61,430 nt of DNA, taken from a virus (taxonomy: Duplodnaviria > Heunggongvirae > Uroviricota > Caudoviricetes). Below are positions 95-60,660 of the stretch, piece by piece (within the stretch, counting starts at the first letter, position 1; each line of letters begins with the position of its first letter). The notes under the pieces are model-generated. The model was not told the origin of the DNA, did not search any database, and worked only from the letters and a program-made list of their open reading frames with translations. Position numbers and translations under genes: made by a program. The stretch covers positions 94,130 through 155,559 of the IMG/VR virus record IMGVR_UViG_3300029288_000083; one strand, given 5' to 3'.

Positions 95-358
95 TTAAAT
101 TTTTATGTCTGGGAATTTTGGTGCTGACATATTTCCCATACTTGAATTGAAATTCTTTGTCATATTTCCGAAGTCTTGTTTCATCGAAGATATTGACATT
201 GATTCTTTCTTTTGTTTACTTTCTTCTTCTTTTCTCAATTTCTCTTGCTCCTCGTTATCTTCTTTCATATTGTCAATTAAATACTCAATCTCATAAAAAG
301 GTTTTTGCCATATTTCGCTTGGTTGCAAACGTAAATGCTTTAACAGCATATACTCCAT
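95..358 (-). CDS. Tail/baseplate assembly chaperone, T4 gp51-like (possibly the frameshift extension of 360..1343)
   Basis: LFQISWTNLSKMEYMLLKHLRLQPSEIWQKPFYE fits the gp51-like pattern as I recall it. First ATG after the upstream stop is at 358; the frame is open back to 457. Confidence 0.55.
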   Translation of the reverse strand: MEYMLLKHLRLQPSEIWQKPFYEIEYLIDNMKEDNEEQEKLRKEEESKQKKESMSISSMKQDFGNMTKNFNSSMGNMSAPKFPDIKI

Positions 359-359
359 T

Positions 360-1343
360 TTACTCAAGTTCGTCCAAGATATCTGAAATAAGGAAAATAG
401 CTTTGATGCCTCCACGAAAGTTAAGCGGCACAGTGACCTCCCCGGCACCAATCTCAACTGTCATACTTGGATTAACACTTTCTTTTACTAAATCGACAAA
501 TTTAGATAACAACGATATTTTTGAAATTGACCAACCAAAAGATTTTTGTTCTTCTTGTTTGTATGTATCTGCTGTAAGCATTCTCCAATCCTCAAATAAG
601 AATATTGCATATCTAGCAAAATCTTCATCTATTGTTGTTCTTTGTAATTCATTTAAACGACGGTAATCTTTCAAGAAAGAAGATACACCAACATTTGGAA
701 AGTACAAGTTAACAACTTCACCATTTTTTAAATTGAATACAAATGAACGCGTTTCTTCGTTGTAGAATCTCATCATTTTATCTGATGGGTCATAATAGTT
801 AATAATGTCTTTTGTTACTTCAACACGTTCTGTTTTTTCACCAGATGGAATATCTGCAAATAATTTGTTTTCGCCATCTTTAAATGTGTATTCTCTGATT
901 GCAAAAATTAACCAAAATCTATCAATATCTTTAAGATCTTTAAATGACGCACGTTTACCAGGTATTGTTAATTTTATACATCTTTCAACAATAAAATTTA
1001 ACATATCATCAATGCTATAACCATCTTCTTCTTCAATTGTTGACCAGTGTTTTATTTCATACCCACTAGCAGCTTTGATAAATAATTTTGTTCCTACCGG
1101 ATAAAATAATCCTTGACTTGGTAATGATTCTAACGGAATTGCTTTATAACCTAGTTCACCAGCAATATTTTTCGATTCACCTAATGGAGATTCGTTGCTG
1201 ATAATAGGTTGCCCAGCACCATTGAAATTCTTTTTAATTTCATTGATATTTCCTAATGATGTTACTTGTGTATTTATTTGTTCTACACTTTCTGCTGCGT
1301 CAATGATTGCTTTTGCAGCATCTTCTGTTGTTTTTTTTGCCAT
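360..1343 (-). CDS. Baseplate hub / tail assembly chaperone, T4 gp26-like
   Basis: IPLESLPSQGLFYP and DRFWLIFAIREYTF motifs; directly downstream of the tail tube gene. Confidence 0.6.
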   Translation of the reverse strand: MAKKTTEDAAKAIIDAAESVEQINTQVTSLGNINEIKKNFNGAGQPIISNESPLGESKNIAGELGYKAIPLESLPSQGLFYPVGTKLFIKAASGYEIKHWSTIEEEDGYSIDDMLNFIVERCIKLTIPGKRASFKDLKDIDRFWLIFAIREYTFKDGENKLFADIPSGEKTERVEVTKDIINYYDPSDKMMRFYNEETRSFVFNLKNGEVVNLYFPNVGVSSFLKDYRRLNELQRTTIDEDFARYAIFLFEDWRMLTADTYKQEEQKSFGWSISKISLLSKFVDLVKESVNPSMTVEIGAGEVTVPLNFRGGIKAIFLISDILDELE

Positions 1344-20855: not shown

Positions 20856-20891
20856 AAAATCAAATATACAACATTTATGAAGCAATAGCAA
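20856..20891 (-). promoter_or_regulatory. Early promoter, Bacteroidota sigma-A type
   Basis: TTGCTATTGCTTCATAAATGTTGTATATTTGATTTT. Confidence 0.8.
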
Positions 20892-23783: not shown

Positions 23784-23818
23784 TAAACAAATATAAACTA
23801 AAAATGCCTCAATAGCAA
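23784..23818 (-). promoter_or_regulatory. Early promoter variant overlapping a terminator hairpin
   Basis: TTGCTATTG...TTTATATTTG. Confidence 0.6.
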
Positions 23819-23847: not shown

Positions 23848-24309
23848 TTATTTTCTTGGCGTTAATCCGTCAAGAATTTTTGTGATTGCACCTTTAATTT
23901 GACCGTCAGTTGGCGCAATTTCATTTTTGATACTTAAAAATCTTTTAATCTCTTCAATTTTTTCTTTCATTAATTTGAAATTTTTAATTGATTTAACTGG
24001 TCCTTCGTATGCGTAAAATAAAACTTCATGTTTCCATGCATGTTTTGCAACATTTGCTGCTGATTGGTCTTTGCCATCAATTAATAATTGTGTAACATAA
24101 TGACTGTTTTTATTTCTTTCCTCAATTTTCCAAATTGATACATTACAAAGTTTATCATTAAATTTTAATTTAACGCACAATGTTTCTGTTGACGTTTTCA
24201 CTGTAAACACTTTTAAGAACATACCAGTTGGTGTTACAAATAAATGTTGACTTGTTTTGTTTATGTAATTTAATACATGACTGTTTACTTTTTCTATATT
24301 GATTTCCAT
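23848..24309 (-). CDS. Hypothetical protein
   Basis: 153-aa ORF. Confidence 0.65.
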   Translation of the reverse strand: MEINIEKVNSHVLNYINKTSQHLFVTPTGMFLKVFTVKTSTETLCVKLKFNDKLCNVSIWKIEERNKNSHYVTQLLIDGKDQSAANVAKHAWKHEVLFYAYEGPVKSIKNFKLMKEKIEEIKRFLSIKNEIAPTDGQIKGAITKILDGLTPRK

Positions 24310-24461: not shown

Positions 24462-24818
24462 TCATAACTTTACATTTTTTAATAAAAGTGGATAATTGCT
24501 ACATAATCTTCGTGCATCTTCGGATGGTTCGAAAGCGACCGCAGTTATTTCATTATCAATATCTGGTTCACGGAACACAGAATATTTGATTTGTTTTGCG
24601 TCGGCCTTATCTATAAGGTCTTTTAGAGATTGTTCATTCGGTATTGATAAAAAAACCAGGTACTTCGAGCATTCGTGCCATTCTTTTGCAATGGTAGGAT
24701 GATTGTGTTGAAACTCGATTGCAGCATGCGCTGCTTGAACCGCTTGATAGCCTGGTGCAATATCTTGTCTAGCGACAGTTATTAATTTTGAATGGCAATT
24801 AATCTATGTTTCTTTCAT
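24462..24818 (-). CDS. PTH2-like peptidyl-tRNA hydrolase with an in-frame TAG at codon 5
   Basis: Translated by hand: MKET*INCHSKLITVARQDIAPGYQAVQAAHAAIEF...LVFLS..NEQ.L...VFREPDIDNEITAVA...YPLL; no later Met. Confidence 0.8.
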
Positions 24819-24846
24819 GATTATGATTTTTGTTTATTTATTTTTA

Positions 24847-24857
24847 TTATATATACA
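24847..24857 (-). promoter_or_regulatory. Putative late promoter TGTATATATAA upstream of the PTH-like gene
   Basis: TATATAA core about 29 nt upstream of the ATG at 24818. Confidence 0.45.
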
Positions 24858-27728: not shown

Positions 27729-28120
27729 ACTTTGTATTTTTCGATTATTTCTCTAGCTTCTTTTAATGATTCTAATAGCATGCCATTTGTAAACCCAAGT
27801 TTTCTTCTGCCGATTGGCGTATCAATAAAACCCATCAGATTCTTTAAAGAATCTAGAATTTCATTTTCCAATGGCATAACAACAATTGGAATTATTGCAA
27901 ATTCAGATTCATGAGTTTCAATATGATATTTTTTTTCTTTAAACAACCTTTGCATATCTAAAACAAAATCATGCAGTTCACTTTTTGCATGTGCTTCATC
28001 AACATATAATTTGGCAGCACGAATTTTGCAAACGTTTACATTATTTGCACCAATGTATACCGGTTCATCTTTATACGTTAAATCTTGTATGACGTATCCT
28101 AATGTTTTCTTTAGTTCCAT
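27725..28120 (-). CDS. Hypothetical protein
   Basis: 131-aa ORF. Confidence 0.6.
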   Translation of the reverse strand: MELKKTLGYVIQDLTYKDEPVYIGANNVNVCKIRAAKLYVDEAHAKSELHDFVLDMQRLFKEKKYHIETHESEFAIIPIVVMPLENEILDSLKNLMGFIDTPIGRRKLGFTNGMLLESLKEAREIIEKYKV

Positions 28121-28122
28121 AA

Positions 28123-28347
28123 TTATATTTTGTTAAAACGTTTCAAAATGAAAAACAAAAAAACCTGAATACATAAACATATCAAGTACATCCATTTGAA
28201 ATGCATAAACAATTCAAGTCGTGTAACCTGATGTGTAAAAAAATAAAATGTAGGTATTACAATGAGAATGATGTTTATAATAAACATTATTGCAATAACC
28301 GCATCATCCCATTCTAATTCTTTAATAAACTTTTTCAATTTTTCCAT
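28123..28347 (-). CDS. Small membrane protein
   Basis: Two hydrophobic segments. Confidence 0.6.
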   Translation of the reverse strand: MEKLKKFIKELEWDDAVIAIMFIINIILIVIPTFYFFTHQVTRLELFMHFKWMYLICLCIQVFLFFILKRFNKI

Positions 28348-28360
28348 TTGTCAATTTTTT

Positions 28361-28396
28361 AAAATCAAATATACAACATTTAGTATGCAATAGCAA
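28361..28396 (-). promoter_or_regulatory. Early promoter, Bacteroidota sigma-A type
   Basis: Same 36-bp motif. Confidence 0.8.
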
Positions 28397-28397
28397 A

Positions 28398-30143
28398 TTA
28401 ATATGTATATTTGTTTATTAAAGTTTCTCTAGAACTGAATCCTCTACTTCTTGGCGATATGATAACAACAGGAGCAGATTGAGCATTTTTATAAACAGAT
28501 CTTACCATTTGTTTAACAGCAAAATCAATTTCAGTTTGCATTTCTTTTTCTGATAAATGATAAATTGTATCATCATAAAAATCAGGATTCAATTCGTGTC
28601 GATTGAATTCTTGGATAATATCAACTTTAGATTTTCGCGAACGAATAAGATCTGCGCAAATTCCAGATTGTGCAGGATAATTGATTGGATCTTCCATTGC
28701 ATCAGGTAATTCAGCAGCAGGTTTTGTTAATCCATTAAACAATCCTTCAGGAACAATTTCTTTGTCCCAACGATCATTTATATATTTTGCAAATCTGTAT
28801 AACTCAAGTTTTGTCATATCACCAATAGGTTGGTGCACACCTATACTTCCAATGTCATGAAACGATGCCCAGCCCAAAACATTTTCTGTATGATTTCCTG
28901 TTGAAACAATTCCGCTTTTAAATCTGTGATTTGCCGCGATTGCTTGAACAGATCTTAATACTGCATGCATTGTTGAATAACCTGCCAATGGAATTTCTAA
29001 ACCTGAAGATTTAAAACTTTCTTCATCAACTTTTTTGATTTCTTGATAAATTCCTTCAACTGGATTTACATACAATTTGCAACCAAGTAAATCAGCAGTT
29101 TGTGCAGCATACTTATATGTAACCGAACCGTAATTTAAACTTGACGGATTTGTAATGAATACTGTGTGTTCGGGCCCCATTGCATCTACAACAATTGCGG
29201 CAACAATTGAAGAATCAAGACCGCCGGATAGATGTACTTGTGCATTAGGGATTCCACAAAGTTTAAAGAATTCCTTTTGTTCAAAAACCAATGCATCATA
29301 TATTTCAGAAAACTTACTGTTAACTGTACGATTAACGATAGGAATCAAATTTTGTGTATATACACTAAGATTTGCTGTTTTGAAATTTGGTAATTGCGTA
29401 CAAAGATTTCCGATTGAATCGAAAACTAAACTTCCGCCATCATAAATTACAATGTTTTTCAATATGTCACCTAAACCACATGAATTTACCATGATAACAG
29501 GTACATTATTATTTTTTGCAATTTTTTGGAAAAGATTGTAACGAACTTCTTGTTTTCCATAATAGAAATACGATTGGTTGATTGAAATTAAAACCTCAGC
29601 ACCCATATTTACCATTTCTTCTGGAATATTTCTTCTGTGATTTTCAAACCAAGAATCTTCGCAAATTGGAACTCCAATATTTACTGATGAATAATCACGA
29701 AGAACAATGTTGAATATTTTTGTTTCTTTTCCAGGAATAAAATACTTTTTGTCTTCATGATGGTCAGTTGTTGCAAGCAATTGCTTATGATATACTTCAA
29801 GTTTTCCTCGATTTATACATGCAACAGAATTTCTTAATTTTGGGAACCCTGATTTGTTGATTCCGCCACAAGAAACATAACCAACGATGAATGTTTGGTT
29901 GTCTTGTAAATTTTTATTGATTAACACAAGATCTTTGATATAGCTTTCTTGTTTTCTTACAAAATCAATTCTGTCCCATAATGAACCGCAGCAATATCCA
30001 CTTATTGCTGTTTCTGGAAAAACAGAAACATCAACTTTATCATATGCATCTTGTTTTATGCATTCCAAAATTTTATCGAAATTTCCTTGAAGGTCGCCTG
30101 TGACCGTGTTAATTTGATGACCGTTAATTTTCATATATAACAA
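28398..30143 (-). CDS. nadE: Glutamine-dependent NAD+ synthetase (nitrilase plus synthetase domains)
   Basis: VFPETAISGY, YHKQLL, ICED.W; LSGGLDSS, STGNHTE, PIGDMTK, PAAEL. Confidence 0.92.
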   Translation of the reverse strand: MLYMKINGHQINTVTGDLQGNFDKILECIKQDAYDKVDVSVFPETAISGYCCGSLWDRIDFVRKQESYIKDLVLINKNLQDNQTFIVGYVSCGGINKSGFPKLRNSVACINRGKLEVYHKQLLATTDHHEDKKYFIPGKETKIFNIVLRDYSSVNIGVPICEDSWFENHRRNIPEEMVNMGAEVLISINQSYFYYGKQEVRYNLFQKIAKNNNVPVIMVNSCGLGDILKNIVIYDGGSLVFDSIGNLCTQLPNFKTANLSVYTQNLIPIVNRTVNSKFSEIYDALVFEQKEFFKLCGIPNAQVHLSGGLDSSIVAAIVVDAMGPEHTVFITNPSSLNYGSVTYKYAAQTADLLGCKLYVNPVEGIYQEIKKVDEESFKSSGLEIPLAGYSTMHAVLRSVQAIAANHRFKSGIVSTGNHTENVLGWASFHDIGSIGVHQPIGDMTKLELYRFAKYINDRWDKEIVPEGLFNGLTKPAAELPDAMEDPINYPAQSGICADLIRSRKSKVDIIQEFNRHELNPDFYDDTIYHLSEKEMQTEIDFAVKQMVRSVYKNAQSAPVVIISPRSRGFSSRETLINKYTY

Positions 30144-30153
30144 TATTTAAAAT

Positions 30154-30381
30154 TTAAAGTGTAAAGAATGCAAAAATTCGTGGTATTGCGTGAAATATAT
30201 CTATCCAATTGTTATTGAATACGACAAAAACTACAATGTATACTATCAGCCAAATGAATTCAACAAGCATGCCAAAAATTCCGCCAATTTCGTGCGTTAA
30301 ATCGCTATGACTTATTATATCAAGAATAAACCAAATAATTCCTGATGTTACAAAGTACATTAAAAAATCAAGTATATGCAT
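30154..30381 (-). CDS. Small membrane protein
   Basis: Two hydrophobic segments. Confidence 0.6.
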   Translation of the reverse strand: MHILDFLMYFVTSGIIWFILDIISHSDLTHEIGGIFGMLVEFIWLIVYIVVFVVFNNNWIDIFHAIPRIFAFFTL

Positions 30382-30402
30382 AATTTATTTTGTCAATTAA
30401 TT

Positions 30403-30438
30403 AAAATCAAATATACAACATATTACATGCAATAGCAA
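30403..30438 (-). promoter_or_regulatory. Early promoter, Bacteroidota sigma-A type
   Basis: Same 36-bp motif. Confidence 0.8.
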
Positions 30439-30459
30439 TAGTTTCTTACATTATTTTCG

Positions 30460-30532
30460 TGGCCCGTGTGGGTGTCGAACCCACGACCTGAGGGGTTAGA
30501 ATCCTCCGCTCTACCAGTTGAGCTAACGGGCC
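30460..30532 (-). tRNA. tRNA with CUA anticodon (amber suppressor); CCA not encoded
   Basis: GGCCCGT TA GCTC AACTGGTA GAGC G GAGGA TT-CTA-AC CCCTC AGGTC GTGGG TTCGACA CCCAC ACGGGCC A; canonical 73-nt cloverleaf with an A31.C39 mismatch. Confidence 0.88.
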
Positions 30533-30537
30533 AAATA

Positions 30538-30993
30538 TTATTTCATCTGTATTCGTTCTCCTAACGTGATGTTCTTATCTTCTTGCAATCGAATTTTCTT
30601 TTTTGGTATGATGTGTCTTCGTCCTACTGATTTTCCTTGATATTCATTCGTAACCCAACCTCTTTGTCCTTTTGCGATATTTATGATATCATACATTTGT
30701 AAACAAGGCGAATCTGCATTAGCATATATAATTTTATAGACACATGGCCAATTAGATCGTTGCAAAACTGTTGCGTAAATTTTCATTGCGGTATCATTAT
30801 GACCTTGTAATTTTTCTTTATTTGTTACTTTAATATTTGCCATAAAAGTAACAGTATCAACAACAAGATAGTCATATCCTTTACCGCTATGAATTTCTGG
30901 AGATATTTTAAATGCAATCGTGCGATACATTCTACACGATTGCATTGTTATGATAGTTGAAAGTATCAACAAAAAAGTAATAATTCTTTTCAT
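30538..30993 (-). CDS. Putative lipoprotein
   Basis: MKRIITFLLILSTIITMQSC signal peptide with lipobox-like Cys. Confidence 0.55.
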   Translation of the reverse strand: MKRIITFLLILSTIITMQSCRMYRTIAFKISPEIHSGKGYDYLVVDTVTFMANIKVTNKEKLQGHNDTAMKIYATVLQRSNWPCVYKIIYANADSPCLQMYDIINIAKGQRGWVTNEYQGKSVGRRHIIPKKKIRLQEDKNITLGERIQMK

Positions 30994-30996
30994 ATA

Positions 30997-32016
30997 TTAT
31001 AACGATTTGTAAATACTGTAGTAATCCATGAATATTTCCATTGGGTTTAAACCTGAATCAATGAAACTTGCAATTGCATCATTGTATGAGCCATCTTTGA
31101 AATTGTTTGCAACATTTTCCTTAAATGCAGTAATAACCTTTCCAAGTTCTTGACCTTTTAAACCTGTTGCTTCCATAATCATGTCACCGTTAATTGCTTC
31201 GGAAACACGTTGATTTCGTTTATCAGTTTCTTGTAATTTCAAAAGTGTTGTTTTGAAATTTGCTTCTGGGAAAAACGAATCAATAGTATCATGATATTCT
31301 TCCTTGTTCTTTAAGAAAGTAAATTTCGATTGAACATTATTTTTCTCAGCATATTCAAGGAATCCTTGATATGTTGAACGTTTAGCATTACGCTTACGGT
31401 CAATATGATTTAAGTTTTCCATTTGGAAATTATCAACATTGAAATATTTTCCTTCAATAATCCATTCAAAAATTTCCTCGGTTGTATCAAAACCTTTTAA
31501 ATATCGGTCGTAATCATAACCTAAAAATTCAAAAATTTTACGTGAATCTTTAGAAATAACAATGTCTGTTGTTAATCTTCCAGAAAATGTTCGGAATGGA
31601 AAGATTAATCCTTCAAACCCATATTTCAAACCAAATTTATGAGCAATTTTACCCATAAGATTTCCAGTAGGATCCCACGAAAAGAAATCTTTTGCTGTTT
31701 CCCAATTCCTTGTAGGCTGCGGTATAATATCAACTTGATATTTTTGATATTCAAATGAATATACATTGCCATTGCAATATACCGGTCCAAATCTTGCTTT
31801 TAACCGTTCGCCTATGTTTCCTAAATCTCCTGTGTTTAGGATAAGTAAATCCAAATCGCCATGCGTTTCTTTTGTTCTATAAAAAGATACTGTTGCAACT
31901 TCTGTATTAAACATTTCAGTTATAACAGGAATTAATTCGTCTTGTATTCGCAAGTGTTCACTTGTTGTTTTTCGTTCAGTGTACACATTTAAAATTGCCA
32001 TTGCCTTTCCACCCAT
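30997..32016 (-). CDS. Nucleotidyltransferase (pol-beta/PolX-like fold)
   Basis: KETHGDLDLLI, YQVDII; tail INGDMIMEATGLKGQELGKVI resembles the end of CCA-adding enzymes. Confidence 0.7.
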   Translation of the reverse strand: MGGKAMAILNVYTERKTTSEHLRIQDELIPVITEMFNTEVATVSFYRTKETHGDLDLLILNTGDLGNIGERLKARFGPVYCNGNVYSFEYQKYQVDIIPQPTRNWETAKDFFSWDPTGNLMGKIAHKFGLKYGFEGLIFPFRTFSGRLTTDIVISKDSRKIFEFLGYDYDRYLKGFDTTEEIFEWIIEGKYFNVDNFQMENLNHIDRKRNAKRSTYQGFLEYAEKNNVQSKFTFLKNKEEYHDTIDSFFPEANFKTTLLKLQETDKRNQRVSEAINGDMIMEATGLKGQELGKVITAFKENVANNFKDGSYNDAIASFIDSGLNPMEIFMDYYSIYKSL

Positions 32017-32037
32017 TTTTTTATTTTATTAATTGTT

Positions 32038-32073
32038 AAAATCAAATATACAACATTACGAAACCGATAGCAA
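32038..32073 (-). promoter_or_regulatory. Early promoter, Bacteroidota sigma-A type (upstream of the NTase-lipoprotein-tRNA unit)
   Basis: Same 36-bp motif. Confidence 0.8.
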
Positions 32074-32081
32074 GGGAAATA

Positions 32082-33071
32082 CTAATTATTTTTAAATTTC
32101 CATGAAAAACCTTGCGATTTCTTCAATTTATTTTTGCAGCACATTAATATTGTTTTTGTCACGAAATTATTATCGCGAAGTTCGGATAGTGTCCATTCTT
32201 TTAACGATACGTTTTCATTATTTATTTGTAATATAGTCTGTTTGATTTTTGCTGCATTCTGTAGATTTCTATTGTATGCTTGCATATTTTTATAATTACA
32301 ATCTGTTGTATAAAACCACATATATTCATTAAACTTGTAATTACTATTATCTTTATTATTTCTATCACAACATATTTTCACATGACCAGCATGGAAACCT
32401 TCACTGTTTGCATCTTTTGAATTAAAAAATTCTCTTATAAATTTACCATCTAATGAATATTGACAAATAGCTTTATACTGTAACGGAACATCAATTATCT
32501 CGTGTACAGTTTCATTTGCCAAATACTTCCAGTAACTATTGTGAACTTTTCTGTATTTATTTCGCTCTGAATCATTGCACGCTCTGAATATGTGTGATGA
32601 ATTGCATTTAATATGATATGCTGCGTTTGCTGGACTATCCCAAATCTTTAGTATTTTGCCGTTACTATCAAATTGTATAACATCAACAATTTTCCGCATT
32701 TTATCTAAGCTTTCTTTTTTCAATTTTCTGTTAACTGTTCCTTCGCCGCCGTCTGTCATATTAGATAATGGACCCTCCCGTAAATCACGTCGTCCTATTT
32801 TTCTTATTAAATCAATTTCTTTATTGCAAGATTCAACAAACGTTAGACTATCGTAAACTTTTAAAATTATAGGTGTATAACCGGACGTTTTTATCTTATT
32901 TATTATGTTCTGCTTTAACGCGTTTACACTTGTCGATTTAAACATGTGTGCAGTCATTCGCATTCCTTTACCTCTACCTACATAAAAAGGTTCATAATTA
33001 AAAATGATATCATCAAATGTATAATTGCCAGGCTTCAACGGATTGAGATAAACATACACATAAAATTCCAT
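32082..33071 (-). CDS. GIY-YIG homing endonuclease with NUMOD1-like repeats
   Basis: YVYVYLNP...PFYVGRG...R, LSNMTDGGEG, QFDSNG/QYSLDG repeats; ends in TAG. Confidence 0.88.
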   Translation of the reverse strand: MEFYVYVYLNPLKPGNYTFDDIIFNYEPFYVGRGKGMRMTAHMFKSTSVNALKQNIINKIKTSGYTPIILKVYDSLTFVESCNKEIDLIRKIGRRDLREGPLSNMTDGGEGTVNRKLKKESLDKMRKIVDVIQFDSNGKILKIWDSPANAAYHIKCNSSHIFRACNDSERNKYRKVHNSYWKYLANETVHEIIDVPLQYKAICQYSLDGKFIREFFNSKDANSEGFHAGHVKICCDRNNKDNSNYKFNEYMWFYTTDCNYKNMQAYNRNLQNAAKIKQTILQINNENVSLKEWTLSELRDNNFVTKTILMCCKNKLKKSQGFSWKFKNN

Positions 33072-33086
33072 ACTTGATATTTTTAT

Positions 33087-33096
33087 TTATATATTC
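33087..33096 (-). promoter_or_regulatory. Putative late promoter GAATATATAA
   Basis: About 16 nt upstream of the endonuclease ATG. Confidence 0.55.
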
Positions 33097-33099
33097 ATA

Positions 33100-33124
33100 T
33101 AAGATTACAAAATTTGTAATCTTA
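33100..33124. terminator. 11-bp hairpin TAAGATTACAA-AAT-TTGTAATCTTA
   Basis: Perfect inverted repeat after the stop of 33136..33375. Confidence 0.5.
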
Positions 33125-33135
33125 TTAGCAAAACA

Positions 33136-33375
33136 TTATTCTAACATTTTATTAAGTTCAATTTTAATTCTTTTCGCTGTTTCTCCGCGCCAATATTGTG
33201 CATTACCTAAAAAGTAACAAATAATAGATCTTGCAGAATCAGCGTAATAATTATCATTTATTGATTGCAACGTTGACATTGCGTCAAGATATGGTTTTGC
33301 ACCGTAACCGACGTTTTTCCAATCGGAACGAATTTCATTTGCAATTTCTTTTAGTGGTCGATGATTTGTTTCCAT
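33136..33375 (-). CDS. Conserved small phage protein
   Basis: 79 aa; RPLKEIA.EIR.DW...GAKPYLDAM...WRGETAK.IK. Confidence 0.65.
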   Translation of the reverse strand: METNHRPLKEIANEIRSDWKNVGYGAKPYLDAMSTLQSINDNYYADSARSIICYFLGNAQYWRGETAKRIKIELNKMLE

Positions 33376-33395
33376 TTTTATTTTATCAATTAATT

Positions 33396-33431
33396 AAAAT
33401 CAAATATACAACATTTATGATGTAATAGCAA
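33396..33431 (-). promoter_or_regulatory. Early promoter, Bacteroidota sigma-A type
   Basis: Same 36-bp motif. Confidence 0.8.
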
Positions 33432-33436
33432 TAGTT

Positions 33437-34234
33437 TTACTGATTATTTTGCAATAAAATTAAATTAGAATTTGACATTAAAGCATCAACCTTATCATTA
33501 TCTAAATTCAACAAGAAATTTGAAAGTTCATTTGATAACTTTATAAAATTTTGTTGAACTTTTTCAAAAAATTCTTCGCGTTCTTTTGTCCAAGCAATGA
33601 TTGTGTATTCTCGTTCAAATATACCTGCGTTGTTATGCGAATGATGCAAAAACTCAGATGTTGTTTCACAGCCACCAGTATCAGTATGTGCAGTAGTTGC
33701 AGATGTAGGTGAATTTCTTTTCCTCGAGTAATACGTTTTTATTTTTGGCGCATCTTCATCATTAAATAAATAACGATTTGTTTCTTTTACATAAGAAACA
33801 AAATATTGAAACGATATGTTTGTTTTTAATCCTGCATCAGCATGATTATAATCAGTTCTACATTTTAATGTTCCAGTCGAAAACTTAATACAAATTACCT
33901 TTGTTTCATTTGCAAGTTCAATTCGTTTACGTTCAATTGCGTATGTTGATGCTTCAGAAATAATTTTACGCAATTCACGTATGTCAGTAGAAACAATTTT
34001 TTGTTTATATGGCGGGTAGCAGCCTCTATCATTATATCCTTTATGACCTTCCTTCATAAACCACGGTGTGGTATCAACAATATAAGAATATAAATGTTTA
34101 GGTATTTTTGTTGTATAAGAAATACTTTGGATATCTTCTGTTATATCGGTCATTTCAATGTCAAGATTCTTCTTTTCCATTTTCAAAAAATCTTCCGATG
34201 CAATTTCAAATGATAAATTAATTTTCATATTCAA
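33437..34234 (-). CDS. Hypothetical protein
   Basis: 265-aa ORF. Confidence 0.7.
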   Translation of the reverse strand: MNMKINLSFEIASEDFLKMEKKNLDIEMTDITEDIQSISYTTKIPKHLYSYIVDTTPWFMKEGHKGYNDRGCYPPYKQKIVSTDIRELRKIISEASTYAIERKRIELANETKVICIKFSTGTLKCRTDYNHADAGLKTNISFQYFVSYVKETNRYLFNDEDAPKIKTYYSRKRNSPTSATTAHTDTGGCETTSEFLHHSHNNAGIFEREYTIIAWTKEREEFFEKVQQNFIKLSNELSNFLLNLDNDKVDALMSNSNLILLQNNQ

Positions 34235-34247
34235 TTTTTATTAATGT

Positions 34248-34283
34248 AAAATCAAATATACAACATTTATGAAGCAATAGCAA
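34248..34283 (-). promoter_or_regulatory. Early promoter, Bacteroidota sigma-A type
   Basis: Same 36-bp motif. Confidence 0.8.
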
Positions 34284-55277: not shown

Positions 55278-55313
55278 AAAATCAAATATACAACATTTTT
55301 GCATCAATAGCAA
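55278..55313 (-). promoter_or_regulatory. Early promoter, Bacteroidota sigma-A type
   Basis: Same 36-bp motif. Confidence 0.8.
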
Positions 55314-57195: not shown

Positions 57196-57231
57196 AAAAT
57201 CAAATATACAACATTATTGCTTCAATAGCAA
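57196..57231 (-). promoter_or_regulatory. Early promoter, Bacteroidota sigma-A type
   Basis: Same 36-bp motif. Confidence 0.8.
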
Positions 57232-60624: not shown

Positions 60625-60660
60625 AAAATCAAATATACAACATTTTGTATGCAGTAGCAA
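60625..60660 (-). promoter_or_regulatory. Early promoter, Bacteroidota sigma-A type
   Basis: Same 36-bp motif. Confidence 0.8.

What the first reader, a model, noticed from the sequence alone, without database searches (positions are those of the whole stretch)
30460..30532. Amber-suppressor tRNA (CUA) in a genome that is not TAG-recoded
Seen: a perfect 7-bp acceptor stem, canonical D and T arms, a 5-nt variable loop and anticodon loop TT-CTA-AC; G1-C72, A73, no encoded CCA. It ends a unit that starts at an early promoter (32038). Known: CUA tRNAs are typical of code-15 phages, where TAG is sense in many genes. Here all long ORFs are intact in code 11, so the tRNA seems to serve few targets. 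The charged amino acid cannot be read off: the short variable arm argues against Tyr/Leu/Ser and U20 against Arg.
Basis: partly seen in the sequence, partly recalled or inferred. Interest (0 to 1): 0.85.

Follow-up and report, generated by a model that had tools for sequence, protein, structure and literature searches.

The report
Phage amber-suppressor tRNA with one gated target
A large phage that otherwise uses the normal genetic code carries a real tRNA that reads the UAG stop codon. Its one convincing target is a UAG placed at codon 5 of a small tRNA-hydrolase-like gene 5.7 kb away, a pairing kept in about ninety related phage genes, so that enzyme is probably made only when this tRNA works.

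Summary
Window 30460-30532 (minus strand) is a canonical class-I tRNA (Rfam 63.1 bits against a cut-off of 29; ARAGORN) with anticodon CUA, G1-C72, A73 and no encoded CCA.

The 155.6-kb record is not TAG-recoded. Reading TAG as sense raises coding coverage by only 1.3 points, 13 minus-strand genes end in TAG, and the tail sheath gene is intact. The record is only about 49% complete.

One gene needs the tRNA: a PTH2-like gene at 24462-24818 that begins ATG AAA GAA ACA TAG ATT, with no canonical start for 75 codons after the TAG.
- In 125 related loci (103 distinct genes), 91 keep a short ATG leader plus TAG just before the domain.
- 41 of 45 loci of 8 kb or more hold a CUA tRNA (median distance 296 nt); 91 of 92 CUA tRNAs lie on the gene's strand.
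- One relative has a TGA leader beside a UCA tRNA.
- The 91 linked CUA tRNAs keep CTA invariant and show compensatory changes in all 19 stem pairs.

The inserted amino acid stays unresolved; Lys is the leading guess. No expression data could be obtained.

This scan has reported the same amber-gated PTH2 module on other genomes and on this one. I found no published description.

The parts
30460..30532 (-). tRNA with anticodon CUA (amber-suppressor type). Class I, G1-C72, A73, A31.C39 mismatch, CCA not encoded.
   Evidence: ARAGORN. Rfam RF00005 at 63.1 bits. Cloverleaf is the MFE fold. It belongs to a family of 91 CUA tRNAs with invariant CTA and compensatory changes in all 19 pairs.
32045..32073 (-). 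Promoter-like motif TTGCTA-N17-TATATT at the head of the unit that ends with the tRNA.
   Evidence: There are 10 exact minus-strand copies in the window; with one mismatch allowed there are 12 matches on both strands against 1.6 expected, and 0 of 100 shuffles reach 12.
30997..32016 (-). First ORF of the unit, 339 aa, Pol-beta-like nucleotidyltransferase (GDLDLL motif). Not part of the conserved module.
   Evidence: phrog_24943, E 1.5e-29. No Pfam hit. A homologue lies in only 1 of 125 related loci, 7 kb from the tRNA.
30538..30993 (-). Second ORF of the unit, 151 aa, unknown function, with a lipoprotein-like N-terminus. It ends 5 nt before the tRNA.
   Evidence: ORF list. No Pfam or PHROG hit.
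30410..30438 (-). Next copy of the same promoter-like motif, starting 22 nt after the tRNA's 3' end. It marks the start of the following unit (75-aa ORF and NadE).
24462..24818 (-). PTH2-like gene, the proposed target. It reads ATG AAA GAA ACA TAG ATT and then 112 more sense codons to TGA.
   Evidence: Sequence and translation. Pfam PF01981 at 39.6 bits against a cut-off of 23. The family profile matches solved Pth2 structures, E 2.4e-9. The first ATG/GTG/TTG after the TAG is at codon 75.
24804..24806 (-). The in-frame TAG (codon 5) that the CUA tRNA is proposed to read.
   Evidence: The same position holds TAG in 91 of 103 distinct relatives.
24845..24857 (-). A+T-rich motif TGTATATATAATA upstream of the PTH2-like gene, a different promoter-like class from the one ahead of the tRNA unit.
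   Evidence: 4 minus-strand matches with at most one mismatch, against 0.39 expected. Its function is not shown.

Best explanation
The gene encodes a functional elongator tRNA that pairs with UAG. It is transcribed as the last element of a three-gene unit, cut out of that transcript, given its CCA end by a host or phage enzyme, and charged by a host synthetase. The amino acid is unknown, with Lys the leading guess.

Its conserved job is to read the UAG at codon 5 of the phage's PTH2-like gene, 5.7 kb downstream on the same strand. Without it, ribosomes starting at the only available ATG would release a four-residue peptide. With it, they continue into the 113-residue hydrolase-like domain. The protein is therefore made only when, and in proportion as, charged suppressor tRNA outcompetes release factor 1.

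The codon sits in a short, variable leader, so the identity of the inserted residue probably does not matter. The few phage genes that end in TAG would gain short tails as a side effect.

Shown: the tRNA, the interrupted gene, their conservation, linkage and covariation.

Inferred: expression, charging, actual read-through, and why a tRNA hydrolase should be gated in this way.
For: The tRNA is canonical.

The PTH2-like gene:
- It has a short ATG leader, then TAG, and no canonical start for 75 codons.
- Relatives at 58% identity have the identical 20-nt leader ATGAAAGAAACATAGATTAA and a CUA tRNA 1.2 kb upstream.
- Across 125 loci (103 distinct genes), 91 are gated.
- The in-frame stop just upstream is TAG in 92 of 103, although TAG is the rarest stop in this genome.
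- The codon after the TAG is ATT 61, GTA 12, GTT 11, AAC 3, one each of CTG, GTG, ATA and GTC, and never ATG. It therefore encodes a conserved I/V residue and is not a start codon.

Linkage to the tRNA:
- A CUA tRNA lies in 41 of 45 gated loci of 8 kb or more and in 15 of 18 loci of 3-8 kb, at a median distance of 296 nt.
- 91 of 92 CUA tRNAs are on the gene's strand.
- Locus L057 has the leader ATG AAG TGG TGA and a UCA tRNA 33 nt upstream, so stop type and anticodon covary.
- L028, which has no TAG gate, holds 28 tRNAs and no CUA tRNA.

The tRNA family:
- The 91 linked CUA tRNAs keep CTA in every sequence, and all 19 cloverleaf pairs show double compensatory changes.
- With the anticodon masked, 86 of 93 score best as their own class. 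This window's tRNA scores +9.5 for that class and below zero for every isotype.

No other convincing TAG-interrupted gene exists in the 155 kb.
Against: - No expression, CCA-addition, charging or read-through data exist.
- The 31-39 A.C mismatch could weaken the anticodon arm, though the same arm variant recurs in L053, L069 and phage Bxz1.
- In mycobacteriophages Bxz1 and Myrna the codon after the TAG is GTG, at good distance from a Shine-Dalgarno-like GAAGG/GGAGG. Ordinary initiation would do there.
- Three relatives (L041-L043) keep the tRNA next to an ungated gene, and several ungated genes sit beside UUA tRNAs. The link therefore goes beyond gating.
- In Xanthomonas phage XacN1, which has two CUA tRNAs, the PTH2-like domain is fused into a 279-aa ORF without a gate.
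- The record is about half a genome, so further targets cannot be excluded.
Confidence: 0.7

Rival explanations
1. Upstream mini-ORF with re-initiation. The TAG simply ends a 1-9 codon leader ORF, and the ribosome restarts at the next codon (ATT, GTG and so on) to make the PTH2-like protein. The CUA tRNA is then unrelated to this gene.
For: ATT is a rare but real bacterial start codon and follows the TAG in 61 of 91 genes. In Bxz1 and Myrna the next codon is GTG with suitable Shine-Dalgarno spacing, and annotators call it the start.
Against: If this codon were a start, ATG should dominate, yet it is never ATG in 91 distinct genes. 27 genes have GTA, GTT, GTC or AAC, which are not start codons. 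This reading does not explain why the leader stop is TAG in 92 of 103 genes when TAA ends over 80% of genes here. It also does not explain the nearby same-strand CUA tRNA or the TGA/UCA pair in L057.
Confidence: 0.1
2. Part of a wider code change. The tRNA mainly serves many TAG-containing late genes (code 15) that lie in the unsequenced half of the genome, and the PTH2-like TAG is just one of them.
For: The record is about 49% complete. Recoded phages concentrate in-frame stops in structural and lysis genes, and low-GC, TAG-poor standard-code phages that acquire suppressor tRNAs are proposed precursors (bioRxiv 10.1101/2021.08.26.457843). This genome has 32% GC, TAG is its rarest stop, and it also carries a UCA tRNA.
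Against: The late genes that are present (tail sheath, and the terminase region as listed ORFs) are open under code 11. 13 minus-strand genes end in TAG. No release factor or Gln/Glu- or Lys-type synthetase gene was found in the fragment. The TAG in the PTH2-like gene is position-specific across phages whose flanking 16 kb mostly gain no more coverage from TAG as sense than from TGA as sense; L011, L017 and L032 gain more.
Confidence: 0.12
3. The tRNA is chiefly a partner or substrate of the PTH2-like protein or an anti-host device. Examples are a decoy, a handle, or an agent that extends host proteins ending in UAG. On this view gating is incidental.
For: PTH2-like genes without any gate still sit next to suppressor tRNAs: CUA in L041-L043, and UUA in L034, L049, Lak-A1 and L124. 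The family lacks the Lys that aligns with the proposed catalytic Lys of Pth2, having Tyr or another residue instead, so its substrate may differ from ordinary peptidyl-tRNA.
Against: The anticodon is invariant and the anticodon loop keeps U33 and A37 in over 90% of sequences. That is what decoding demands and what a mere binding handle would not require. The stop-type/anticodon match in L057 points to decoding.
Confidence: 0.06
4. Decaying or non-functional tRNA copy, a chance anticodon mutation of an ordinary tRNA.
For: A.C mismatch at 31-39. No isotype profile fits it. It is isolated, 52 kb from the main tRNA array.
Against: High covariance-model score, a perfect acceptor stem and all conserved tertiary nucleotides. 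It belongs to a conserved CUA family under structural selection.
Confidence: 0.02

Closest known systems
Phage-encoded suppressor tRNAs in stop-codon-recoded phages (code 15 TAG to Gln, code 4 TGA to Trp; Lak, crAss-like and other gut phages; bioRxiv 10.1101/2021.08.26.457843; PMC9523058; PMC10879173)
   Same: A phage supplies its own CUA tRNA in a host that uses the standard code. An in-frame stop makes a gene depend on that tRNA. The genome is low in GC and poor in TAG, and a standard-code phage with a suppressor tRNA matches the proposed precursor state.
   Different: Here there is no genome-wide or late-gene recoding: +1.3 points of coverage and one interrupted gene. The gated gene is a translation-related enzyme, not a lysis or structural gene. 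The TAG sits at a fixed place in a tiny leader, conserved in about 90 distinct genes. No release factor or synthetase gene was found in the fragment. These papers do not mention peptidyl-tRNA hydrolases.
Orphan CUA suppressor tRNAs of cultured jumbo phages, e.g. Xanthomonas phage XacN1 (PMC5852040)
   Same: Standard-code large phage with many tRNAs and CUA tRNAs. One XacN1 tRNA-Sup is 76.7% identical to this tRNA. The authors could not find targets by reading through terminal amber codons.
   Different: In this window a target can be named. In XacN1 itself the PTH2-like domain is the C-terminal part of ORF364 and is not amber-gated, so its targets remain open.
Mycobacteriophage cluster C (Bxz1 gp154, Myrna gp84) 'peptidyl tRNA hydrolase' with adjacent tRNA
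   Same: Same protein family (37-42% identity). A TAG lies immediately before the annotated ORF (ATG TAG GTG in Bxz1, GTG TAG GTG in Myrna). A CUA tRNA lies 130-310 nt downstream.
   Different: The codon after the TAG is GTG with good Shine-Dalgarno spacing, so normal initiation is possible. The records annotate the tRNAs as 'tRNA-OTHER' and 'tRNA-Ser'.
RF2 (prfB) autoregulation by an early in-frame UGA
   Same: A translation-factor gene carries an early in-frame stop, so that its own output reports the balance between termination and the competing event. This rests on established knowledge and works as an analogy only.
   Different: RF2 uses a +1 frameshift and senses its own product. Here the competing event would be suppression by a dedicated tRNA, and no feedback from the PTH2-like protein onto suppression has been shown.
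Archaeal/eukaryotic peptidyl-tRNA hydrolase 2 (Pfam PF01981; PDB 2ZV3, 1RZW/3ERJ, 1Q7S)
   Same: The target gene's product matches the family over its full length.
   Different: The Gly-Lys of Pth2 aligns with Gly-Tyr (or other residues), and the Asp of the Asp-Ala-Gly motif aligns with Glu of a family-specific E-P-D-x-D-N-x-x-T motif. Activity is untested.

Membership tests
tRNA (Rfam RF00005) | Cloverleaf scoring above the curated covariance-model threshold | tested here: met
   63.1 bits against a gathering score of 29, full-length, on the minus strand. ARAGORN agrees.
tRNA (Rfam RF00005) | Conserved tertiary and loop nucleotides (U8, A14, G18 G19, U33, purine 37, T54-psi55-C56, A58) | tested here: met
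   All are present in the aligned sequence. The exceptions are A31.C39 and an A15/C48 combination.
Functional amber-suppressor tRNA | Anticodon CUA in a 7-nt loop in the standard register | tested here: met
   Loop UU-CUA-AC. CTA is invariant in 91 related tRNAs.
Functional amber-suppressor tRNA | An in-frame UAG in a gene that needs reading through | tested here: met
   PTH2-like gene, TAG at 24804-24806. The position is conserved in 91 of 103 relatives.
Functional amber-suppressor tRNA | Expression, CCA addition, aminoacylation and measurable read-through | not testable with these tools
No wet-lab data are available.
Code-15 (TAG to Gln) recoded phage | Coding density at least 5% higher with TAG as sense (criterion for contigs over 100 kb in PMC10879173) | tested here: not met
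   87.3% against 88.6%. TGA as sense gives 88.9%.
Code-15 (TAG to Gln) recoded phage | Many genes with in-frame TAG, and TAG not used as a terminator | tested here: not met
   One convincing case. 13 minus-strand genes end in TAG. Only about 49% of the genome is held.
Code-15 (TAG to Gln) recoded phage | Accessory code-change genes (RF2, a matching aminoacyl-tRNA synthetase) | tested here: inconclusive
   No PF00472, PF00749 or PF00152 hit in the fragment. Half of the genome is missing.
tRNA-Pyl (ARAGORN's label) | Atypical pyrrolysine tRNA build: small D loop without G18 G19, 3-nt variable loop, long anticodon stem (from established knowledge) | tested here: not met
   The tRNA has a canonical D loop with G18 G19 and a 5-nt variable loop. 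The label reflects the anticodon only.
tRNA-Lys-derived suppressor | Backbone and acceptor features of tRNA-Lys (G1-C72, A73) | tested here: inconclusive
   Most annotated phage matches are tRNA-Lys, including the three best, at 76-82% identity. G-C/A73 is the commonest type in the phages' own tRNA-Lys (9 of 13), but also in Phe and Val. The isotype profiles (leave-one-out accuracy 71%) give negative scores for all isotypes, and Lys is not among the top six.
tRNA-Gln-derived suppressor | U1-A72 and G73 | tested here: not met
   This tRNA has G1-C72 and A73. A second class of CUA tRNAs in relatives has Y1-R72 with G73.
PTH2 (PF01981), for the target gene | Profile score above the curated cut-off over the whole domain | tested here: met
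   39.6 bits against 23. The family profile against PDB Pth2 chains gives E 2.4e-9.
PTH2 (PF01981), for the target gene | Catalytic Lys and Asp reported for Pth2 (recalled from the literature, not checked here) | tested here: inconclusive
   The aligned positions are Tyr or variable, and Glu. The residue roles rest on memory.

The most novel reading that the evidence does not exclude
The suppressor tRNA and the amber-gated PTH2-like enzyme form a closed control loop that holds UAG in a stable, partly reassigned state. The enzyme, made only by read-through, acts back on the suppressor tRNA by removing its amino acid or peptide, and so sets the level of suppression. This would be a tRNA-based analogue of RF2 autoregulation. 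It would explain why the two genes stay linked even where the gate is absent or the stop type differs.
Probability: 0.12. Interest if true: 0.9.

Novelty: new variant of a known kind. Interest (0 to 1): 0.72.

Why it matters
Suppressor tRNAs in standard-code phages have been reported as orphans with no known target. For XacN1, PMC5852040 says so explicitly. Otherwise they are read as a first step towards recoding. Here the tRNA can be tied to one specific, conserved codon in one specific gene. That turns a vague 'possible read-through' into a simple, testable circuit.

It would also be a natural example of a single gene licensed by a dedicated tRNA, in a gene that itself acts on tRNAs.

The same layout occurs in cultured mycobacteriophages that grow on M. 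smegmatis, so the idea can be tested at the bench with ordinary tools.

For annotation, it shows that gene callers miss or mis-start this gene, and that CUA tRNAs are mislabelled tRNA-Pyl, tRNA-Ser or tRNA-OTHER.

Tried and rejected
- Close DNA relatives. Megablast of 28000-34000 against the phage collection found no match. The tRNA had no blastn match in E. coli genomes.
- Isotype by nearest neighbour among 294 phage tRNAs gave mixed results: Met, Arg, Ile. Position-weight profiles per isotype (leave-one-out accuracy 71%) gave only negative scores. The amino acid stays open.
- Other amber targets. I scanned for two long in-frame segments separated by TAG, for startless ORFs after TAG, for short-leader TAG patterns, and for all code-15 ORFs with a codon-usage score. 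Only the PTH2-like gene stands. The others have their own start codons or lie in non-coding leaders.
- Back-up stops. Extensions after TAG terminators are short (median 5 codons) but not clearly shorter than after TAA or TGA.
- Neighbours of the tRNA. The 339-aa nucleotidyltransferase-like ORF and the 151-aa ORF are not conserved next to CUA tRNAs in relatives. There is no class-II CCA-enzyme head domain in the fragment.
- No tRNA remnant lies beside the PTH2-like gene. No ribozyme or other Rfam family lies beside the tRNA.
- XacN1. ORF088 next to its two tRNA-Sup genes is not PTH2-like. Its PTH2-like domain is in ORF364 and is ungated.
- Looking for distant CUA tRNAs in gated relatives that lack one nearby. 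The hits were not tRNAs. The pattern was too narrow, since it would miss this window's own loop. Two of the five records were not held, and two of the three searched are small fragments. This is inconclusive.
- The 153-aa gene after the PTH2-like gene has homologues in 10 of the related loci, downstream of the PTH2-like gene where coordinates allow a check, but has no recognisable family.
- Literature searches for the PTH2 and suppressor pairing found no description.

Full report
**1. The observation**

ARAGORN predicts one tRNA in the window, at 30459-30532 on the minus strand, with anticodon CUA. Rfam's tRNA model matches 30460-30532 on the minus strand at 63.1 bits (threshold 29) over the whole model.

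The aligned sequence shows:
- a perfect 7-bp acceptor stem with G1-C72 and A73;
- C and then G after A73, so no encoded CCA;
- a standard D arm with G18 G19 and U20;
- a 5-nt variable loop and a standard T arm;
- the loop UU-CUA-AC with U33 and A37.

The one blemish is an A.C pair at 31-39. The free-energy minimum of the 73 nt is the cloverleaf. Missing CCA is the rule in this genome, in 51 of 52 tRNAs. ARAGORN's name 'tRNA-Pyl' only restates the anticodon, because the molecule has none of the odd features of pyrrolysine tRNA.

**2. The genome**

The window is the last 61 kb of a single 155,559-bp viral record with 32% GC and nearly all genes on the minus strand. CheckV rates the record about 49% complete. 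It holds 52 predicted tRNAs. Most lie in an array 52 kb or more from this one, and one has anticodon UCA.

Under code 11, long ORFs cover 87.3% of the record. Reading TAG as sense gives 88.6% and reading TGA as sense gives 88.9%, so neither stop is reassigned on any scale. Published surveys ask for a gain of 5% or more (PMC10879173).

TAG is the rarest terminator, ending 13 of 220 minus-strand genes. It is followed by another stop after a median of 5 codons. The tail sheath (1133 aa), clamp loader, helicase, topoisomerase and ligase genes are open. So 'not TAG-recoded' holds for the half of the genome that is available.

**3. The transcription unit**

A motif TTGCTA-N17-TATATT occurs as 10 exact copies on the minus strand. 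With one mismatch allowed there are 12 matches on both strands, against 1.6 expected.
- One copy (32045-32073) precedes a 339-aa nucleotidyltransferase-like ORF and a 151-aa ORF that ends 5 nt before the tRNA.
- The next copy (30410-30438) begins 22 nt after the tRNA.

No terminator-like site was found on the minus strand here. Whether this promoter class is early is not known. The two ORFs are not linked to CUA tRNAs in relatives.

**4. The target**

- The minus strand there reads ATG AAA GAA ACA TAG ATT and runs open for 113 codons.
- The part after the TAG matches Pfam PTH2 at 39.6 bits against a cut-off of 23, starting 5 codons after the TAG.
- It also matches solved Pth2 structures.
- There is no ATG, GTG or TTG for 75 codons after the TAG.
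- Four different scans of the 155 kb found no second convincing case.

**5. Comparative evidence**

Two viral contigs with a 58% identical protein carry the same 20-nt leader, including the TAG, and a CUA tRNA 1.2 kb upstream. A 38% identical relative has a normal ATG but a CUA tRNA touching its 3' end.

Profile-based retrieval gave 39 viral and 80 metagenomic loci, plus six from the annotated phage collection. That is 125 loci and 103 distinct genes.
- In 91 of the 103 genes, the domain is preceded in frame by ATG, 0-9 further codons (one in 49 genes, two or three in 34 more) and TAG.
- The upstream in-frame stop is TAG 92, TAA 6 and TGA 5.
- The codon after the TAG is ATT 61, GTA 12, GTT 11, AAC 3, and one each of CTG, GTG, ATA and GTC. 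It is never ATG.
- A CUA tRNA lies in the fetched DNA in 41 of 45 gated loci of 8 kb or more and in 15 of 18 loci of 3-8 kb, at a median of 296 nt.
- 91 of 92 CUA tRNAs are on the gene's strand.
- L057 has the leader ATG AAG TGG TGA followed by GTA and the domain, with a UCA tRNA 33 nt upstream. This is a change of stop type matched by a change of anticodon.
- L028, which is ungated, has 28 tRNAs and none with CUA.
- The flanks of most of these loci gain no more coverage from TAG as sense than from TGA as sense, which gives no sign of general TAG recoding; L011, L017 and L032 gain more.

Together these results make decoding of the leader TAG by the linked tRNA the simplest reading.

**6. The tRNA family**

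I aligned 91 CUA tRNAs from these loci and this window.
- They keep C-T-A in every sequence, with U33 and A37 in over 90%.
- All 19 predicted cloverleaf pairs show double compensatory changes.
- With the anticodon masked, 86 of 93 score best against a profile of the other CUA tRNAs and not against any of 17 isotype profiles built from the same phages.
- This window's tRNA scores +9.5 for the CUA class and below zero for all isotypes.

Shared descent of related phages contributes to this result, so it shows a coherent lineage more than a proven identity set.

Where a locus has two CUA tRNAs, in most of the 19 such loci they are of two acceptor types: G1-C72 (or G-U) with A73 or U73, and Y1-R72 with G73. 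The second type resembles the phages' Gln and Asn tRNAs. The first, to which this tRNA belongs, resembles their Lys, Phe and Val tRNAs.

**7. Which amino acid**

- Class I structure excludes bacterial Leu, Ser and Tyr.
- G1-C72 with A73 argues against Gln, Trp, Glu, Asp and Asn.
- Most annotated phage matches by BLAST, including the three best, are tRNA-Lys at 76-82% identity, and one XacN1 tRNA-Sup is at 76.7%.
- From memory of the E. coli amber-suppressor series (Normanly and colleagues, 1990, not checked here), CUA tRNAs with generic A73 bodies tend to be charged by LysRS, which relies on U35.

My estimate is Lys about 0.4, Gln about 0.2, and other or mixed for the rest. The leader peptides differ freely (MK, MT, MTH, MCL, MKET and so on), so the residue probably does not matter for the enzyme.

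**8. The mechanism, and what is not shown**

Most likely the tRNA is cut from its polycistronic transcript, CCA-tailed and charged by host enzymes. No CCA enzyme, release factor or relevant synthetase gene is in the fragment. The tRNA then competes with RF1 at the leader UAG, so the PTH2-like protein appears only when the tRNA is active.

The tRNA unit and the PTH2-like gene carry different promoter-like motifs, so a timing role is possible but untested. Why this enzyme is gated is unknown. The family has Tyr or other residues where Pth2 has its Gly-Lys, and Glu where Pth2 has the Asp of Asp-Ala-Gly. Its substrate may therefore not be ordinary peptidyl-tRNA.

Ungated family members also sit beside suppressor tRNAs (CUA in L041-L043; UUA in L034, L049, Lak-A1 and L124). 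The two genes therefore seem to be functionally tied beyond the gate. A feedback loop on suppression is one possibility.

**9. Rivals**

- Re-initiation after a mini-ORF is plausible for Bxz1 and Myrna, where GTG with good Shine-Dalgarno spacing follows the TAG. It fails for the many genes with GTA, GTT or AAC. It also does not explain the choice of TAG or the linked tRNA.
- Wider recoding in the missing half of the genome cannot be excluded, but it does not conflict with the target named here.
- A pseudo-tRNA is very unlikely.

**10. What is known**

Papers on recoded phages, jumbo phages and mycobacteriophages in the held library do not describe this pairing. The XacN1 paper states that no target was found for its CUA tRNAs, and in XacN1 the PTH2-like domain is fused and ungated.

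This scan has itself reported the amber-gated PTH2 module several times on other genomes and once on this window. My counts were made afresh and agree.

Noticed in passing
window 20863-20891, 23790-23818, 28368-28396, 30410-30438, 32045-32073, 33403-33431, 34255-34283, 55285-55313, 57203-57231, 60632-60660 (all minus strand): A strongly conserved promoter-like element (TTGCTAYYG...AATGTTGTATATT) in 10 exact copies on the coding strand, each just ahead of an ORF. It is probably one temporal class of phage promoters.
   Followed up: partly
genome about 92775-94279 on the plus strand, running into window 148-666: A 501-codon open frame on the plus strand ends in TGA and continues in frame for 172 more codons. 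Almost all genes are on the other strand, so it may be an antisense artefact or a TGA read-through candidate for the UCA tRNA.
   Followed up: no
L046 (Mycobacterium phage Bxz1) 3660-3732; L045 (phage Myrna) 3463-3534: tRNAs annotated 'tRNA-OTHER' and 'tRNA-Ser' are CUA tRNAs by ARAGORN. They sit 130-310 nt after the 'peptidyl tRNA hydrolase' gene, whose annotated GTG start directly follows a TAG (ATG TAG GTG and GTG TAG GTG).
   Followed up: partly
L057 1550-1979; L058 110-496: Variants of the gate with other stops. L057 has the leader MKW-TGA with a UCA tRNA 33 nt upstream. L058 has the leader MKTQFW-TAA on a 1.6-kb contig with no tRNA in reach.
   Followed up: partly
window 30494-30510; L053 411-484; L069 5697-5771; L046 3660-3732: The unusual anticodon arm (A at 31, loop UUCUAAC, then CC, giving an A.C at 31-39) recurs in four otherwise different CUA tRNAs, including that of Bxz1. 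It may be a selected variant and not damage.
   Followed up: no
loci with two CUA tRNAs, e.g. L010 4509-4582 and 5245-5318; L026 8471-8545 and 8550-8625: Many relatives carry two amber-suppressor tRNAs of different acceptor types (G1-C72 with A73 or U73, and Y1-R72 with G73). This suggests two different amino acids could be inserted at UAG. This window has only the first type.
   Followed up: partly
L133 757-1596 (Xanthomonas phage XacN1 ORF364): In XacN1 the PTH2-like domain is the C-terminal third of a 279-aa 'hypothetical protein', without an amber gate. It is distinct from the annotated peptidyl-tRNA hydrolase ORF295.
   Followed up: partly
window 23848-24309 (minus strand): The 153-aa gene right after the PTH2-like gene has homologues in 10 of the related loci, downstream of the PTH2-like gene where coordinates allow a check. 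It has no Pfam, PHROG or Atlas assignment and could be a third part of the module.
   Followed up: partly
L144 about 1501-1528 and L145 about 1501-1528 (contig of L038, positions 40304 and 40505): Two copies, 200 nt apart, of a CTCTAAAAGG...TTTATTCAA element that mimics an anticodon loop plus T loop. Neither ARAGORN nor Rfam calls it a tRNA, and this contig has a gated PTH2-like gene with no CUA tRNA found.
   Followed up: partly
whole genome (G000): 51 of 52 predicted tRNAs lack an encoded CCA end, and no class-II CCA-adding enzyme domain is in the fragment. Maturation must rely on the host or on a gene in the missing half.
   Followed up: partly
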